Assembly (NCBI GenBank): GCA_965261345.1
Contig: OZ253449.1
Span: forward strand, 960,001-1,024,000
DNA: 64,000 nucleotides
Source: Chloroflexota bacterium
Lineage (GTDB): Bacteria; Chloroflexota; UBA11872; VXNJ01
Direction of reading: 5' to 3'
The position numbers and the translations under genes were made by a program. Positions within the stretch are counted from its first letter, which is position 1; each line of letters starts with the position of its first letter. Under the pieces are notes generated by a model that saw only the letters and a program-made list of their open reading frames with translations, made no database searches and was not told the origin of the DNA. This document shows positions 45,415 through 51,055 of this stretch, one piece after another.

Positions 45415-46800
45415 ATGGCATCAGATGTATGGACGATGGATCGGCGAAGCCTGTCCTCCAACACCGGTTTTGTACCGCAGACGCTAACGCTGTTCGAAGC
45501 GGCAGGGTTTGAAAAGTTGATCAAGCCTGGCGATGTTGTAGCCATCAAGCTGCACTGTGGCGAATGGAACAATTCCGCCTATCTGCGCCCGGTTTACGCG
45601 CGTGCGGTGGCCGATGAGGTCAAACGCCTGGGTGGCCGCCCCTTCGTGTGCGACACAACCACCATGACCTACGGTCCGAGAGCGGCGCGGGTGATTGCCC
45701 CGGACCTGATGTACACCGCCGAGCGCAACGGCTATTCGTCGGCGACGCTGGGATGCCCGTTCCTCTCGGCCGACGGCTTCAACGGCACCGACGACATTCG
45801 CATACCGCTGCCCGAGGGGTACATCCTCAACGAGGCCTACGTCGCCAAGGCGATCGCTCTGGCAGACGTGCTGATCGCACTCACCCACTTTAAAGGTCAC
45901 CCGATGGGCGTGATCGGCGGGGCAATTAAGAACCTTGGCATCGGTTGCCAGTCCAAGCGCGGCAAATACAACGTTCACCAGGGCGGACACCCGGACTTTG
46001 GATTTGGCGGCCTGGCCGAATGGCATCCCGAAAACGTGACCGAGGGGTTCAAAGACATGGTCCCGGGGATCTGTATCCACGAGGCATATTCGCGCAACAA
46101 CGGCAGCGTCGAATGGCACCCGGAAAAATGCCTTTCTTGTCTTGGGTGTTACGGCACGATGGTGTCGATGGGAGCCTGGACCGCCACCGAAGACAATTCA
46201 CGGGCCTTCAATGCCGCCTGCGCCGACGCCTGCCTGGCGGTCATGAAGGCACTGGATGGAAACGTTGCCTTCCTAAACCTTGGGCTCGACGTTTCGCCCA
46301 AATGTGACTGCCTCGACCATGCCGACCTGCCGGTTACGCCGCACATTGGCGTATTTGCCGGCTACGATCCGGTGGCGCTCGACACCGCGTGCCTGGATAA
46401 GGTGGTCGAGCTGCCGGGGATGCCCGGATCGGCCGCCGAGGATTTCGGGGTTGACGGTGCGGGCGACCGCAAGCTGACAATGGCCGGTTCGATGATTCCC
46501 GGAATCTCCGAGGAAATCCAACTAAACACCGGGGTCAAGAACGGGCTCGGCACCAAAGAATACAACCTGATCCAGGTTGAAGAATCCGACGACGCCGCGC
46601 GTTACGGTTTTTACGACCAACGTCTCGTTGGCGAACGCTACCGCTCCATCTACGCGAAAGAAAATCCATTCCCGGCCGAACGGCACGGCGGGCACGGATT
46701 CGATCGCAAACGTCGCGACGAAGTGGACCTTGACGCCGTGGCTGGCCCGATGGTAACTGAACCATCCGTTCACGCGCACCATCACCACCGGCACGGATAA
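45415..46800 (+). CDS. DUF362 Fe-S protein with His-rich tail
   Basis: VAIKLHCGE, THFKGH, KNLGIGC, CLSCLGC, CDC, DPVALD. Confidence 0.85.
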   Translation: MASDVWTMDRRSLSSNTGFVPQTLTLFEAAGFEKLIKPGDVVAIKLHCGEWNNSAYLRPVYARAVADEVKRLGGRPFVCDTTTMTYGPRAARVIAPDLMYTAERNGYSSATLGCPFLSADGFNGTDDIRIPLPEGYILNEAYVAKAIALADVLIALTHFKGHPMGVIGGAIKNLGIGCQSKRGKYNVHQGGHPDFGFGGLAEWHPENVTEGFKDMVPGICIHEAYSRNNGSVEWHPEKCLSCLGCYGTMVSMGAWTATEDNSRAFNAACADACLAVMKALDGNVAFLNLGLDVSPKCDCLDHADLPVTPHIGVFAGYDPVALDTACLDKVVELPGMPGSAAEDFGVDGAGDRKLTMAGSMIPGISEEIQLNTGVKNGLGTKEYNLIQVEESDDAARYGFYDQRLVGERYRSIYAKENPFPAERHGGHGFDRKRRDEVDLDAVAGPMVTEPSVHAHHHHRHG

Positions 46801-46839
46801 TCTGCGACTGAGCCCAATAGATAAGGACGAAGATCATCG

Positions 46840-47148
46840 ATGATCCCAAGAGGAGTTCAACAGCTTAGCGAAGCGGCCAAAATCGCCGGCGATTTGGCAA
46901 GTTCCAACGTCGATCAGGCGCTGATTGAGCGGCTTTCGCGCCTAAAAGCTGCGCTTGAGAAAATTGCGGGCGCTCCCCTGGCCCGAAGCGGCTTGGCAGT
47001 ACCGCTGACGGCCCCGATTAACCGCAACGCCAAGAAGCTCCAGCAATGTAGCGGTGACAGCTTCAGCGCCGCCCTGGACTCCCTCGAAAAGGTTGTGGCC
47101 AATTTCGAAAAACGGGCCGGTGGCGCTGGCAACATCGCCATTACCTAA
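46840..47148 (+). CDS. Hypothetical protein
   Basis: 102-aa ORF between the DUF362 gene and the terminator. Confidence 0.6.
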   Translation: MIPRGVQQLSEAAKIAGDLASSNVDQALIERLSRLKAALEKIAGAPLARSGLAVPLTAPINRNAKKLQQCSGDSFSAALDSLEKVVANFEKRAGGAGNIAIT

Positions 47149-47181
47149 ACGGCGGTCGGCAGTCGTAACCAAGCGGACCCG

Positions 47182-47220
47182 AAACCGCCCGTGCCTTTCG
47201 GCACGGGCGGTTTTTCCTTT
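47182..47220 (+). terminator. Intrinsic terminator
   Basis: AAACCGCCCGTGCC-TTTC-GGCACGGGCGGTTT perfect stem plus T-rich tail. Confidence 0.85.
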
Positions 47221-47321
47221 CGTCCGACATCCAATTTCGCCATTGGCACGCCTCCCCCACCCCTCCCCTTTTTTTCGACACCCCGGACCACACCCCACCC
47301 CAATCACCGTCAAGAGCTCCC

Positions 47322-47356
47322 TTGGGGACCCCTCGTTAAACGTATATAATTGCGGG
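47322..47356 (+). promoter_or_regulatory. Sigma70-type rRNA promoter
   Basis: TTGGGG-17 bp-TATAAT (47345-47350) then GC-rich discriminator. Confidence 0.7.
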
Positions 47357-47547
47357 CTCTTGCGAACAAGTCTGGCCTTTCATTTGGTTCCGCTTTTTTC
47401 AGAGCAGAACCTTCGACAACTGAAGAGCAGCCGAATTGATAAATTTTCTCAATGTCAATTCATAGCGAATTAGGTCTGCAGAGTTTCAGGATGTAAAAGC
47501 GCTTCATTTAAATTGTTTAAACATCCTCGGAGACGAGGATTTTTTCT

Positions 47548-49048
<1,501 letters not shown>

Positions 49049-49217
49049 AGTGCTTGGCAGAAATGCCGGGCGATCCCAGTCAAGCTTCCTAAACTCTGTT
49101 TCAACGCTTAATTTGCTAACGAAGCGTAAATGAAATTGACGCACATTGGGATTTGATATCTCGGCTGCTACTTCAGATGTCGAAGGTTTGACCCTTTACA
49201 AGTGAATATGGATGTGC

Positions 49218-49495
49218 CGAGCCGGTCGGGTTGTCGCGCTTAGCGCGAGGAAAGTCCGCACTCCGCAGGGCAGGATAGCGGGTAACGCCCGTCCGCCGTG
49301 AGGCGAGGACCAGTGGAACAGAGACCAATGCCGGATAATGCCGGAGTGAAAAGGCCAAACTCTATTCGGAGCAAGCCCAAGCAGGGATGATGACGCGGCC
49401 CGCCGAGTCCCAGGTAGGGTGCAAGGAATCATCGGGTAACCGGTGATCAAGATAGATGGCAACCGATTACAGAATGCGGCTTATAGACCGGCTCG
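49218..49495 (+). ncRNA. rnpB: RNase P RNA, compact form
   Basis: P1 CGAGCCGGTC/GACCGGCTCG; GAGGAAAGTCC; ACAGAGA; GTGAAA; GGAGCAAG; ACAGAATGCGGCTTA. Confidence 0.97.
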
Positions 49496-49513
49496 AATAA
49501 TCCATATTCAGCA

Positions 49514-49588
49514 TGCGGGGTGGAGCAGTGGCAGCTCGTCGGGCTCATAACCCGGAGGTCGTCGGTTCGAATCCGACCCCCGCAACCA
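49514..49588 (+). tRNA. tRNA-Met(CAT), initiator type
   Basis: Cloverleaf, GGG/CCC anticodon stem, A11-U24, encoded CCA. Confidence 0.95.
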
Positions 49589-49930
49589 ATAGTGAACGTT
49601 TCTCGCTTAGCATCCTCTAAGCGATGAATCGTAACTGAAATACGCGCGTTCGCAAATCGATCGCTAACAACGAGCATTCGCCTTTTTAAGTGCCTCCATC
49701 GGGTGCCCGCTTCGATCAAAATTACGGGCCAAACAGGCAGTGGATACGGCGAGCATTCGGATTTCCAATCGCTAACATAAACAGGATGCGCAGCGTGCAG
49801 TTCCAAATATTGGGTTTGTGCGATTTAGCCGCAATTGTTTCTCATCGAAGCGCTGATCGATTCGAGCGCACCTGGGTTGATACGCCAGGCGTACGTTGGA
49901 CGATCCGCAATACAGAAATGTTGGTATGTA

Positions 49931-51055
49931 ATGGGCTCTGATTTCAGCAGCGAAATCGAGCTCCAATCCGGCTTGACCTCCAACGCCGAAAAGAGCGTTT
50001 CGCCCAAAGAATTGCCCGACGGGCAGTGTGATCTTGGCAAACGAATCGACCCAGCTAACAAGCGGCTGCTCAACTGCCTGCGGGTTGATGTCAACCAGCT
50101 GATCCCGCTCAAATACCGGTGGGCCTGGGAGCATTACCTTAACGGGTGCGCCAACCACTGGATGCCCAATGAGGTTTCGATGCAACGGGACATTGAACTG
50201 TGGCGGTCCGATCGCCTAAGCGATGCTGAACGCTTGGTAATCAAGCGAAATTTGGGATTTTTCAGCACCGGCGAGTCGCTGGTCGGCAACAACATCGTGC
50301 TCTCGATCTTTAAGCACATCACCAATTCCGAAGCTCGTCAATACCTGTTAAGGCAGGCATTCGAAGAAGCGCTGCATACCCACTCATTCGTTCACATAGT
50401 GGATTCACTCGGGCTCGATTCGCGCGAGGTATTCAACATGTACCGCGAGGTCGACTCAATCCAGGGTAAAGACGACTTTGTGATGAGCCTTACTCAGGAT
50501 GTGATGGATCCGACATTTAGCACCGATTCGCCCTCCGGCATTCAGCGCTTCATAAAGAACCTGGTCGGCTTCTATGTGGTGATGGAGGGGATCTTCTTCT
50601 ATTCAGGTTTCGTAATGATCCTCTCGTTTCATCGCCGAAACCAGATGACCGGTGTCGGCGAGCAGTTCCAGTACATCATGCGTGATGAAACGATCCACCT
50701 AAATTTCGGGATAGATCTTATAAACACCATCCATGAGGAAAACCCCGAAGCGTGGACGGGTGAACTCGAGAAGGAAATCATCGAGTTGATCAAGGAAGCG
50801 GTGGAGTACGAAGTGGCCTACGCCCACGATTGCCTTCCCTCTGGCGTGCTGGGCCTCAATGCCGACCTGTTCCGCGATTATGTCGAGCACATTGCCGACC
50901 GCCGACTAGAGCGAATCGGCCTCCCGGCCCAATTTGGATCGAAGAATCCATTCCCCTGGATGAGCGAAGTTGTCGACATCCCCAAAGAGAAGAATTTCTT
51001 CGAGACGCGGGTGACCGAATATTCGAGCGCCGGAACGTTGTCCTGGGACGAATGA
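49931..51055 (+). CDS. nrdB: Ribonucleotide reductase beta subunit, class Ic (R2c)
   Basis: [46 protein letters not shown]. Confidence 0.93.

What the first reader, a model, noticed from the sequence alone, without database searches (positions are those of the whole stretch)
49203..49588. RNase P RNA tethered to its own substrate
Seen: the tRNA 5' end (49514) lies 18 nt after P1. A perfect 11-bp flanking stem, TGAATATGGAT (49203-49213) / ATCCATATTCA (49500-49510), clamps the ribozyme and ends 3 nt before the tRNA. Known: RNase P cuts at tRNA +1, engineered ribozyme-pre-tRNA conjugates self-cleave, and rnpB-tRNA cotranscripts occur in some cyanobacteria and yeast mitochondria. Inference: RNase P releases its own 3' end, possibly in cis or as autoregulation, while the stem sequesters most of the leader.
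Basis: partly seen in the sequence, partly recalled or inferred. Interest (0 to 1): 0.75.

Follow-up and report, generated by a model that had tools for sequence, protein, structure and literature searches.

The report
RNase P RNA inside 16S operon
In this Chloroflexota bacterium and its whole class the gene for the tRNA-cutting ribozyme RNase P sits directly behind the 16S rRNA gene and a few bases in front of the initiator tRNA gene, so the enzyme most likely trims its own RNA when it cuts that tRNA free.

Summary
A type A RNase P RNA lies at 49218-49499. A perfect 11-bp stem (49203-49213 / 49500-49510) brackets it. A tRNA-Met(CAT) starts at 49514, 18 nt after P1.

The 16S rRNA (47548-49042) lies directly upstream. 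Its ~27-bp processing stem ends at 49188, 14 nt before the clamp. The 23S gene is about 361 kb away. The tRNA is the only initiator-type tRNA in the genome.

The order 16S - rnpB - tRNA-Met holds across a whole Chloroflexota class and one family outside it. Of 52 loci, 48 have a 16S end upstream. In 42 the first downstream tRNA is tRNA-Met, and in 23 it starts within 25 nt of P1. One relative has rnpB inside the 16S-23S spacer. None of 58 loci from other Chloroflexota families shows this order.

The clamp is specific to one genus, and one species shows compensatory changes. Families that lack it have either a promoter-like box or only a short P1 extension.

Best reading: this is a stable-RNA operon. 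RNase P, acting in trans, cuts at tRNA +1 and so makes its own RNA's 3' end. The clamp is a processing and end-protection stem. Cleavage in cis is unsupported but not excluded. No transcript data could be obtained.

The parts
47407..47434 (+). 5' arm of the 16S rRNA processing stem
   Evidence: pair I2: 47408-47425 with 49171-49188, 18 nt, 94% complementary. One search gives a duplex of about 27 bp, dG -47.9 kcal/mol, spanning 47400-47435 / 49160-49195. The same stem, with changed letters on both arms, is seen in genus g3.
47548..49042 (+). 16S rRNA; the only match in the genome, and unlinked from the 23S
   Evidence: RF00177, 1515 bits, model 1-1533; one match in G000; the only 23S match is at G000:C1:642962-646043 on the minus strand, about 361 kb away.
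49161..49188 (+). 3' arm of the 16S processing stem
   Evidence: A related motif (ACTNCTTCAGNTGT...) stands in front of rnpB in other families of the class, read by eye.
49189..49202 (+). 14-nt single-stranded linker between the 16S stem and the clamp
   Evidence: Read from the sequence. It is too short to hold a terminator plus a promoter. No promoter-like or plus-strand terminator-like site was found here.
49203..49213 (+). 5' arm of the 11-bp clamp (TGAATATGGAT)
49214..49217 (+). 5' side (GTGC) of the 4x4 internal loop between clamp and P1
49218..49499 (+). RNase P RNA, bacterial type A, reduced form (282 nt). P1 is 49218-49227 / 49486-49495. The last 4 nt (AATA, 49496-49499) are the 3' side of the internal loop.
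   Evidence: 192.3 bits; 43 model positions in the P13/P14 region are missing; the only match in the genome.
49500..49510 (+). 3' arm of the clamp (ATCCATATTCA); it also forms leader positions -14 to -4 of the tRNA
49511..49513 (+). 3-nt unpaired leader (GCA); the predicted RNase P cut is between 49513 and 49514
   Evidence: The cut site is inferred from the universal role of RNase P at tRNA +1.
49514..49588 (+). Initiator-type tRNA-Met(CAT) with encoded CCA and a U1-A72 pair; the only tRNA of this type in the genome
   Evidence: 3 tRNAs with anticodon CAT among 49 tRNA/tmRNA genes; only this one has GGG/CCC in the anticodon stem and A11:U24, read from the printed sequences.
49590..49637 (+). 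Hairpin in the tRNA trailer with no U tract. Sequence conservation with congeners ends at the tRNA 3' end.
   Evidence: the fold, and the trailers of 6 g1 genomes, which are unrelated to each other.

Best explanation
The window holds a stable-RNA operon that reads: promoter - 16S rRNA - RNase P RNA - initiator-type tRNA. The RNase P RNA takes the place that spacer tRNAs hold in ordinary rRNA operons.

Proposed pathway:
1. One long precursor is transcribed. This is inferred.
2. The 16S rRNA is released through its ~27-bp processing stem. RNase III is encoded in the genome.
3. The leftover 5' tail in front of rnpB is trimmed 5' to 3' until it meets the closed helix. RNase J and RNase Y are encoded; RNase E/G was not found.
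4. Mature RNase P holoenzyme, acting in trans, cuts between 49513 and 49514. That single cut makes the 5' end of the initiator tRNA. It also makes the 3' end of a new RNase P RNA, which then ends in the clamp plus a 3-nt tail.

The 11-bp clamp is a genus-specific outward extension of P1. It closes the ribozyme domain off from the 16S and tRNA flanks. It marks and protects both ends and may itself be a double-strand RNase site. It is not needed for the tether, because sister genera keep the tRNA 7-11 nt from P1 with no clamp.

Shown here: the anatomy, its conservation, and the presence of the enzyme genes. Inferred: cotranscription, the order of the cuts, and which nuclease makes each cut.
For: Anatomy:
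- 16S, rnpB and tRNA lie on one strand with gaps of 175 and 14 nt between the annotated features.
- The 3' arm of the 16S stem ends 14 nt before the clamp.
- The promoter scan found 0 promoter-like sites, and no plus-strand terminator-like site between 48633 and 50500.
- In a mini-precursor fold the 16S stem, the clamp plus P1 and the cloverleaf all coexist.

Enzymes and copy number:
- One match each in the genome for rnpB, 16S and 23S.
- rnpA, RNase III, RNase J and RNase Y are present. RNase E/G was not found.
- This is the sole initiator-type tRNA.

Conservation:
- All 30 rnpB loci from the order have the 16S 3' end 152-411 nt upstream. Rfam confirmed the 16S in 19 of the 20 loci given to it.
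- Over 52 loci from 7 families, 48 have a 16S-end motif upstream and 43 have it within 450 nt.
- In 42 of the 52 the first downstream tRNA is tRNA-Met. It lies within 150 nt of P1 in 36 and within 25 nt in 23.
- In L139 the order is 16S - rnpB - tRNA-Met - 23S.
- Control: of 60 rnpB loci from 39 other families of the phylum, only the 2 from f7 share the order. The other 58 have no 16S-end motif, and 55 of them have no tRNA nearby.
- A scan of one genome for each of 185,579 species for an rnpB 3' end followed by the initiator-tRNA 5' end gave 15 true cases among 81 listed matches. All 15 are in records titled Chloroflexota or Chloroflexi.
- All 5 metagenome hits have the same build.

The clamp:
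- It is present in 6 of 6 g1 genomes. Of all cells, 90.9% are paired, and 4 of 11 pairs changed on both sides. Controls with the partner slid by 1-3 columns gave 19-40% paired.
- Long flanking helices that continue P1 also occur in family f2.
- Promoter-like boxes right before rnpB occur in f3 (10 of 12 consensus positions), f6 (8 of 12, in 5 of 5 loci) and f7 (9 of 12, in 2 of 2 loci). No locus in f1, f2 or f4 reaches 8 of 12. This fits a role for flanking helices where rnpB must be cut out of a 16S transcript.

Precedents:
- In S. aureus a read-through transcript into rnpB is trimmed by RNase J up to P1, which protects the end (PMC3937233, passages).
- The yeast mitochondrial unit tRNAfMet-RPM1-tRNAPro is processed at its tRNAs (PMC3866640, passages).
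- The M. maripaludis rrnC operon contains rnpB (PMC10515664, passages).
Against: - No transcript data. The look-up of sequencing runs could not be reached in 7 tries, so cotranscription, the ends and the order of cuts remain inferences.
- The promoter scan only knows sigma-70 consensus sites. It also found no promoter upstream of the 16S, which must have one, so its silence is weak evidence.
- Genera g2-g4 and family f4 have neither a clamp nor a promoter-like box. The link between flanking helix and lack of an own promoter is therefore only partial.
- All compensatory changes in the clamp come from one species (G002), so they count as one lineage. G002 also carries a mismatch, and 3 of 6 genomes lose the outermost pair.
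- Leader positions -4 to -14 are base-paired. From what is known of bacterial RNase P protein binding to single-stranded leaders (recalled), this should slow cleavage. The clamp may therefore hinder rather than help the proposed cut.
- In families g5, g7 and f5 the tRNA-Met is far away, absent from the fetched flank, or replaced by tRNA-Glu. The tether is therefore not obligatory.
Confidence: 0.7

Rival explanations
1. Natural self-cleaving conjugate. The newly made RNase P RNA folds and cuts the tRNA attached to its own 3' end in cis. It frees itself without needing a pre-existing enzyme. The clamp acts as a switch that must open first.
For: The tether is very short and old: 7-24 nt from P1 to tRNA +1 in 23 of 52 loci across 5 families. 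That looks like more than convenience. Engineered RNase P RNA-pre-tRNA conjugates do self-cleave (PMC2475606, passages, which cites Frank, Harris and Pace 1994). By my own arithmetic, 18 nt of linker could span the length of P1 if the clamp were open.
Against: - With the clamp closed, the scissile bond lies 3 nt beyond a stack of about 25 layers (P1, the 4x4 loop and 11 bp; roughly 70 A). That stack points away from P4, so the site cannot reach its own active centre. This is my own arithmetic; the place of the active site is recalled, not taken from a call.
- The conjugates that work are tethered at L15 with spacers of 3-5 nt. Conjugates tethered at the 3' end of two archaeal RNase P RNAs, with spacers of 25 and 50 nt, gave no cis cleavage.
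- In relatives with 7-11 nt linkers, P1 itself (10-14 bp) is about as long as the stretched linker.
- Cells always inherit mature enzyme, so there is no need for cis cleavage.
Confidence: 0.1
2. The clamp, stacked on P1, is a double-strand RNase site like the stems around rRNAs. RNase III or Mini-III cuts both arms and releases the RNase P RNA with both ends already made. RNase P later only removes a short leftover leader from the tRNA.
For: - The clamp sits right after a true rRNA processing stem in the same transcript.
- Clamp plus P1 give a helix of about 25 layers with an internal loop, which is the shape of known RNase III substrates (the shape is recalled).
- RNase III is encoded.
- Family f2 has long GC-rich flanking helices of -20 to -50 kcal/mol around rnpB.
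- No own promoter-like box is found in f1 and f2.
Against: - An 11-bp helix alone is short for RNase III.
- Genera g2-g4 and family f4 make do without any such stem.
- A cut in the 3' arm would still leave the tRNA with a leader that RNase P must remove, so this differs from the main reading only in which cut comes first.
- There are no data on cleavage sites.
Confidence: 0.15
3. There is no RNA tether. rnpB and/or the tRNA have their own start sites, with the tRNA promoter lying inside the 3' part of rnpB. The adjacency is then only a gene-order relic, and the inverted repeat is a DNA-level feature such as a protein binding site or a scar of insertion.
For: - Relatives in f3, f6 and f7 do have promoter-like boxes in front of rnpB, so independent transcription of rnpB from the 16S does occur in the class.
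- Both clamp arms are AT-rich and contain hexamers that look weakly like -10 boxes (GAATAT, CATATT; read).
- The consensus scan is blind to unusual promoters.
Against: - The best promoter-like score before rnpB in the window is 6 of 12, and the wider scan found none.
- The hexamers that look like -10 boxes are not kept in congeners, while the base pairing is kept.
- The 3' arm of the 16S stem, which must be transcribed, ends 14 nt before the clamp.
- In f7 and f6 the promoter-like box precedes rnpB, not the tRNA, and the tRNA follows 7-8 nt after P1. There too the two RNAs share a transcript.
Confidence: 0.05

Closest known systems
Yeast mitochondrial tRNAfMet-RPM1-tRNAPro transcription unit
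   Same: An RNase P RNA gene is cotranscribed with tRNAs, one of them the initiator tRNA. It is released by cuts at the tRNA ends, so RNase P takes part in maturing its own RNA (PMC3866640, passages; PMC3790967, passages).
   Different: The yeast case is an organelle with a highly reduced AU-rich RNA. The initiator tRNA is upstream and tRNAPro is downstream. The unit has two promoters, RNase Z and exonucleases also act on it, and it is not part of an rRNA operon. Here we have a free-living bacterium, a type A RNA, the initiator tRNA 7-24 nt downstream of P1, and the 16S rRNA upstream.
Methanococcus maripaludis rrnC operon (16S-tRNAAla-23S-5S-rnpB)
   Same: rnpB is a member of an rRNA operon and must be cut out of the polycistronic precursor. 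A terminal stem at the mature ends is proposed to guide or block the nucleases (PMC10515664, passages).
   Different: The Methanococcus case is an archaeon. Its rnpB lies after the 5S rRNA, not after the 16S. It is released at an A/U-rich motif by an unknown endonuclease, and no tRNA is fused to its 3' end.
Engineered self-cleaving pre-tRNA-RNase P RNA conjugates
   Same: Ribozyme and substrate are in one RNA chain.
   Different: The working designs tether the tRNA next to the active site (L15, spacers of 3-5 nt). Conjugates tethered at the 3' end of archaeal RNAs did not self-cleave (PMC2475606, passages). Here the tether is at the outer end of P1, and in the window it lies beyond a further 11-bp helix.
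Staphylococcus aureus SA1279-rnpB read-through transcript
   Same: RNase P RNA is made from a longer transcript. Its 5' end is trimmed by RNase J up to P1, which protects the end (PMC3937233, passages). The window's genome encodes RNase J and RNase Y and shows no RNase E/G.
   Different: In S. aureus the upstream gene codes for a protein, an own start site also exists, and no tRNA follows.
Spacer tRNA genes (tRNA-Ile, tRNA-Ala) of ordinary bacterial 16S-23S operons
   Same: A small stable RNA rides in the rRNA transcript behind the 16S processing stem and is freed by RNase P. In the relative L139, rnpB and tRNA-Met lie between the 16S and the 23S.
   Different: The passenger here is the ribozyme itself plus the initiator tRNA. 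In the window's genome the 23S has moved about 361 kb away.

Membership tests
Bacterial RNase P RNA, type A (Rfam RF00010) | Score above the curated gathering threshold over the full model | tested here: met
   192.3 bits against 100, model positions 1-367, E = 1.2e-60.
Bacterial RNase P RNA, type A (Rfam RF00010) | Conserved P4 strands (GGAAAGUCC ... ACAGAA-N-GGCUUA) and a P1 that closes the molecule | tested here: met
   The alignment shows GAGGAAAGUCCG at the 5' side and ACAGAAUGCGGCUUA at the 3' side. P1 is 10 bp; in the genus 6 pairs never vary and 3 vary on one side only.
Bacterial RNase P RNA, type A (Rfam RF00010) | Full set of type A helices, including P13/P14 | tested here: not met
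   43 model positions between P12 and P10/11 are absent, and P3 and P12 are short. The RNA is a reduced type A form. The naming of the missing helices as P13/P14 is from my reading of the model and was not separately tested.
Bacterial RNase P RNA, type A (Rfam RF00010) | Protein partner RnpA encoded in the genome | tested here: met
   PF00825 match of 66.1 bits (cut-off 22.3) at G000:C1:892778-893086.
Bacterial initiator tRNA (tRNA-fMet) | Anticodon CAT with three consecutive G:C pairs in the anticodon stem | tested here: met
   CGGGCUCAUAACCCG. The other two CAT tRNAs of the genome lack this.
Bacterial initiator tRNA (tRNA-fMet) | No Watson-Crick pair at positions 1:72 | tested here: not met
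   The window, the rest of genus g1 and family f4 have U1-A72, which is a weak pair. Orthologues at the same place in g2-g4, f3 and f6 have C1xA72, and f7 has C1xU72. I therefore call it initiator-type, not a proven fMet acceptor.
Bacterial initiator tRNA (tRNA-fMet) | A11:U24 in the D stem | tested here: met
   Read from the sequence printed (GGAG...CUCG). That this feature defines initiators is recalled.
rRNA operon with passenger RNA genes | The passenger lies on the same strand behind the 16S processing stem, with no terminator or promoter between | tested here: met
   the stem's 3' arm ends at 49188, the clamp starts at 49203, and no consensus sites were found.
rRNA operon with passenger RNA genes | One precursor transcript spans the rRNA and the passenger | not testable with these tools
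   The look-up of sequencing runs was unreachable, so read laying was never used.
rRNA operon with passenger RNA genes | The passenger lies between the 16S and the 23S | tested here: not met
   In the window's genome the 23S is about 361 kb away. The feature is met in the relative L139 (family f3), which has 16S - rnpB - tRNA-Met - 23S.
Self-cleaving ribozyme-substrate conjugate (works like the engineered ones) | The tether brings the scissile bond to the ribozyme's own active site | tested here: inconclusive
   This rests only on arithmetic from the secondary structure. It is out of reach with the clamp closed, and possible or borderline with the clamp open or in relatives with 7-11 nt linkers. 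No three-dimensional model was made.
Self-cleaving ribozyme-substrate conjugate (works like the engineered ones) | Concentration-independent cleavage | not testable with these tools
   This needs an in vitro assay.

The most novel reading that the evidence does not exclude
The fusion of ribozyme and initiator tRNA is itself functional. Either the nascent RNase P RNA cuts its own tRNA in cis, which would make it a natural self-processing ribozyme-substrate chimera kept for the age of a bacterial class. Or the uncut chimera acts as a gate. In that case the cell's only initiator tRNA, and each new RNase P RNA, become usable only where active RNase P already exists. Ribosome (16S) output, RNase P output and the capacity to start translation would then be locked in a 1:1:1 feedback loop, with the genus-specific clamp tuning how fast the gate opens.
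Probability: 0.12. Interest if true: 0.85.

Novelty: new variant of a known kind. Interest (0 to 1): 0.6.

Why it matters
RNase P RNA genes in bacteria are treated as free-standing genes. Here the ribozyme rides in the 16S rRNA transcript and is fused to the one initiator tRNA. This holds through a whole class of Chloroflexota.

If the reading is right, three core parts of the translation apparatus are made from one promoter, and RNase P finishes its own RNA.

That gives a natural system, not an engineered one, in which to ask three questions:
- Can a ribozyme tethered at P1 act in cis?
- How are RNase P RNA ends defined?
- Why do unlinked 16S genes keep passengers?

It also matters for annotation. 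Spacers of 175-1000 nt behind 16S genes in these lineages are not empty, and one relative has an unusually long 16S-23S spacer because it holds rnpB.

My searches found no report of a bacterial rnpB inside an rRNA operon. Those searches cover only open-access full texts. Supplements were closed.

Tried and rejected
**Expression data.** The look-up of sequencing runs was asked seven times for window:49060-49760 and never answered. There is therefore no evidence on expression either way.

**More clamp variants.** A metagenome scan with a pattern specific to genus g1 found 0 stretches. The allowed second scan used a class-wide pattern and found 5 stretches. None of them was of the g1 type. The covariation sample therefore stayed at 6 genomes.

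**Clamp as a class-wide feature: rejected.** Duplex searches between the flanks gave only -2.6 to -8.4 kcal/mol in g2-g4, f4 and the short-gap f6 loci.

**A conserved -10 box in the clamp arms: rejected.** The hexamers change in congeners while the pairing stays.

**Long duplexfold runs between the 16S leader and the spacer.** These over-predict pairing. I use only the core stem from them.

**A terminator after the tRNA.** There is a hairpin without a U tract in the window. It is not conserved in congeners. One g2 relative has a hairpin followed by a T run. This was left open.

**Literature.**
- PMC55890 is not held.
- PMC10941002, PMC2885270 and bioRxiv 10.1101/705046 (passages) said nothing on the genomic context of rnpB.
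- Kikuchi et al. 1993 and Reiter et al. 2010 are recalled only and were not seen.

**Selection of loci.**
- Of 127 non-class genomes with an rnpB match, I chose 60, taking 1-5 per family by hand. The other 67 were not looked at.
It is counted only in the tally.
- Of the 106 stretches, only 80 loci were listed and examined.
Full report
**What is there.**
- Rfam finds a bacterial type A RNase P RNA at 49218-49499 (192.3 bits, gathering score 100, full model). It finds a tRNA at 49514-49585.
- ARAGORN calls tRNA-Met(CAT) at 49514-49588 with an encoded CCA.
- P1 is 49218-49227 paired with 49486-49495, so 18 nt lie between P1 and tRNA +1.
- The perfect 11-bp inverted repeat 49203-49213 / 49500-49510 is the longest in the region. 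It is separated from P1 by a 4x4 internal loop.
- A run this long arose in 2 of 20000 shuffles of the two flanks. No shuffle out of 2000 reached its duplex energy.
- The minimum-energy fold of 49195-49595 holds the clamp, P1 and the cloverleaf together.

- The same Rfam scan shows the 16S rRNA at 47548-49042, directly upstream on the same strand.
- The second-longest inverted repeat of the region brackets the 16S (pair I2). Refined, it is a stem of about 27 bp, 47407-47434 with 49161-49188, at -47.9 kcal/mol. The same stem with changed letters on both arms is present in genus g3. This is the usual processing stem of a 16S rRNA.
- Its 3' arm must be transcribed, and it ends 14 nt before the clamp.
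- The consensus scan finds no promoter-like site in 46500-50500. It finds no plus-strand terminator-like site between 48633 and 50500.
- The genome is one contig of 2.39 Mb, 95% complete. It has one match each for rnpB, 16S and 23S, and the 23S lies about 361 kb away on the other strand.
- Of 49 tRNA and tmRNA genes, three have anticodon CAT. Only the one behind rnpB has the GGG/CCC anticodon stem and A11:U24 of initiator tRNAs.
- Position 1:72 of that tRNA is U-A rather than the usual mismatch, so I call it initiator-type.
- rnpA, RNase III, RNase J and RNase Y are encoded. RNase E/G was not found.

**Relatives within the order.**
- RF00010 matched in 35 of 41 genomes of the order.
- All 30 loci fetched have the 16S 3' end 152-411 nt upstream of rnpB. 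Rfam confirmed the 16S in 19 of the 20 loci given to it; the 20th locus has only 206 nt of upstream sequence.
- ARAGORN found tRNA-Met in 27 of the 30 loci.

**Relatives within the class.**
- In the class (84 genomes of at least 85% completeness, 6 families, 76 with a match) I fetched 20 further loci.
- Of these, 14 have a 16S by Rfam, 13 have tRNA-Met downstream, 6 (all family f5) have tRNA-Glu, and 1 has none.
- In L139 (family f3) the order is 16S - rnpB - tRNA-Met - 23S. There the ribozyme gene lies inside the 16S-23S spacer.

**Pooled counts, with two loci of family f7 from another class (52 loci).**
- 48 have a 16S-end motif upstream, 43 of them within 450 nt.
- tRNA-Met is the first downstream tRNA in 42.
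- It lies within 150 nt of P1 in 36 and within 25 nt in 23.
- The gap from P1 to tRNA +1 is 18-19 nt in g1, 9-10 in g2-g4, 11 in f4, 24 in f3, 8 in three of five f6 loci, and 7 in f7.

**Controls outside the clade.**
- In a sample of the phylum (151 genomes, 143 with a match) I fetched 60 loci. I chose them by hand from 39 families outside the class.
- Only the two f7 loci share the order.
- The other 58 have no 16S-end motif in up to 1800 nt upstream. Of these, 55 have no tRNA in the fetched flanks. The other 3 carry divergent rnpB genes inside clusters of other tRNAs.
- I scanned one genome for each of 185,579 species for the rnpB 3' motif followed within 15-45 nt by the initiator-tRNA 5' end. 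The scan gave 106 stretches, of which 80 loci (81 matches) were listed.
- Fifteen of the 81 are true rnpB ends, and all 15 are in records titled Chloroflexota or Chloroflexi. The remaining 66 lack the rnpB motifs and are chance matches.
- A class-wide pattern in metagenome contigs gave 5 stretches. All 5 have the P4 motif at the right distance, and 4 have a 16S end upstream.

**The clamp.**
- It is present in all 6 genomes of genus g1, in four versions.
- Counted on the alignment, 90.9% of cells pair. Four of 11 pairs change on both sides and one changes to G.U. With the partner slid by 1-3 columns only 19-40% of cells pair. No shuffle out of 500 reached the observed values.
- All four double changes come from one species, which also has one mismatch. 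Three genomes lose the outermost pair. The evidence is therefore real but thin.
- Outside g1 there is no such stem where the gap is short.
- Family f2 has long GC-rich helices that continue P1 (-20 to -50 kcal/mol).
- Promoter-like boxes ending 7-9 nt before rnpB occur in f3 (10 of 12 consensus positions, TATAAT). They also occur in f6 (8 of 12 in 5 of 5 loci, TATACT) and f7 (9 of 12 in 2 of 2 loci, TTGACC-17-TACACT or TAGACT).
- No locus of f1, f2 or f4 reaches 8 of 12, and the window scores 6.
- So rnpB seems to have its own start in some families. In others, including the window's, it seems to depend on the 16S transcript. Flanking helices are found only in the second group, though not in all of it.

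**How it most likely works.** Steps marked as inferred are not shown by any search.
1. A single transcript runs from the 16S promoter through rnpB and the tRNA (inferred).
2. The 16S is released at its stem (inferred; RNase III is present).
3. The 5' tail before rnpB is trimmed by a 5'-to-3' exonuclease until it meets the closed helix. This is inferred from the S. aureus case, where RNase J trims a read-through transcript up to P1 (PMC3937233, passages).
4. RNase P holoenzyme cuts at 49513/49514. It must do so for the tRNA to work. The same cut leaves the new RNase P RNA ending in the clamp plus GCA (inferred).

The clamp closes the ribozyme off from its flanks and shields both ends. It may also be a double-strand RNase site.

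**Cis or trans.**
- With the clamp closed, the cut site sits 3 nt beyond about 25 stacked layers leading away from P4. It is out of reach of its own active site. This is my arithmetic, and the position of the active site is recalled.
- With the clamp open, or in relatives with linkers of 7-11 nt, reach is possible to borderline.
- Working engineered conjugates are tethered at L15. Conjugates tethered at the 3' end of archaeal RNAs failed (PMC2475606, passages).
- I therefore give cis cleavage about 0.1.

**Compared with what is known.**
- RNase P RNA cotranscribed with tRNAs, and matured with the help of RNase P, is known from yeast mitochondria (PMC3866640 and PMC3790967, passages).
- rnpB inside an rRNA operon is known from the archaeon M. 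maripaludis, where it lies after the 5S (PMC10515664, passages).
- Six full-text searches found no report of a bacterial rnpB in an rRNA operon or fused to the initiator tRNA. These searches cover open-access texts only, and supplements were closed.
- I rate it a new variant of a known kind. It is interesting to RNase P and rRNA-processing specialists because it is old and conserved and can be tested directly.

**Limits.**
- No expression data could be obtained: the run finder was unreachable seven times.
- Family and genus labels are the tool's anonymous codes.
- The organism is known only as a Chloroflexota MAG lineage, from record titles.

Noticed in passing
window 47880-47900: The 16S rRNA departs from the near-universal sequence at the 341-357 primer site (CCUACGGGGUUUAGCAUGAAGG against the model's CCUACGGGaGGCAGCaGugggG). 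The 5' partner strand near 47596-47606 is changed too (alignment). Standard V3-V4 primers might miss this lineage.
   Followed up: no
window 49514 and 49585; loci: Position 1:72 of the initiator-type tRNA is U-A in genus g1 and family f4. It is C x A in g2-g4, f3 and f6, and C x U in f7. The usual initiator mismatch has thus become a weak pair in two lineages.
   Followed up: partly
window 49218-49499: The RNase P RNA is small (282 nt). Forty-three model positions (the P13/P14 region) are missing, and P3 and P12 are short. Lengths in the class are 282-413 nt, against 350-470 nt in most other Chloroflexota families sampled.
   Followed up: partly
L158 (G054:C192, 2194-nt contig): Two rnpB matches in tandem (173.5 and 116.7 bits) lie between the 16S end and tRNA-Met. 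This could be a real duplication or an assembly artefact on a short contig.
   Followed up: no
L195 (f41), L202 (f21), L204 (f49): Three other Chloroflexota families have divergent, low-scoring rnpB genes without the usual P4 motif string. These genes sit inside clusters of tRNA genes (Leu, Ala, Gly, Phe, Gln; Ala, Ala, Leu / Val, Glu; Val, Leu), with gaps of 32-46 nt. It is a second, independent kind of rnpB-tRNA linkage.
   Followed up: no
L159, L160 (family f7): Here rnpB, behind a good promoter-like site (TTGACC-17-TACACT or TAGACT), leads a tRNA operon of Met-Val-Tyr(-Asp). tRNA-Met follows 7 nt after P1, and the 16S end lies about 412 nt upstream.
   Followed up: partly
L150, L151 (family f6): In two of five f6 loci the rnpB-tRNA gap has grown to 59-61 nt. 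It holds one or two local hairpins (sequences), while the other three loci keep 8 nt.
   Followed up: no
window 45415-46800 and 49835-51055: The flanking genes are a DUF362 protein upstream and a ribonucleotide reductase small chain downstream. The sequence after the tRNA is not conserved among congeners, so the conserved block ends at the tRNA.
   Followed up: partly
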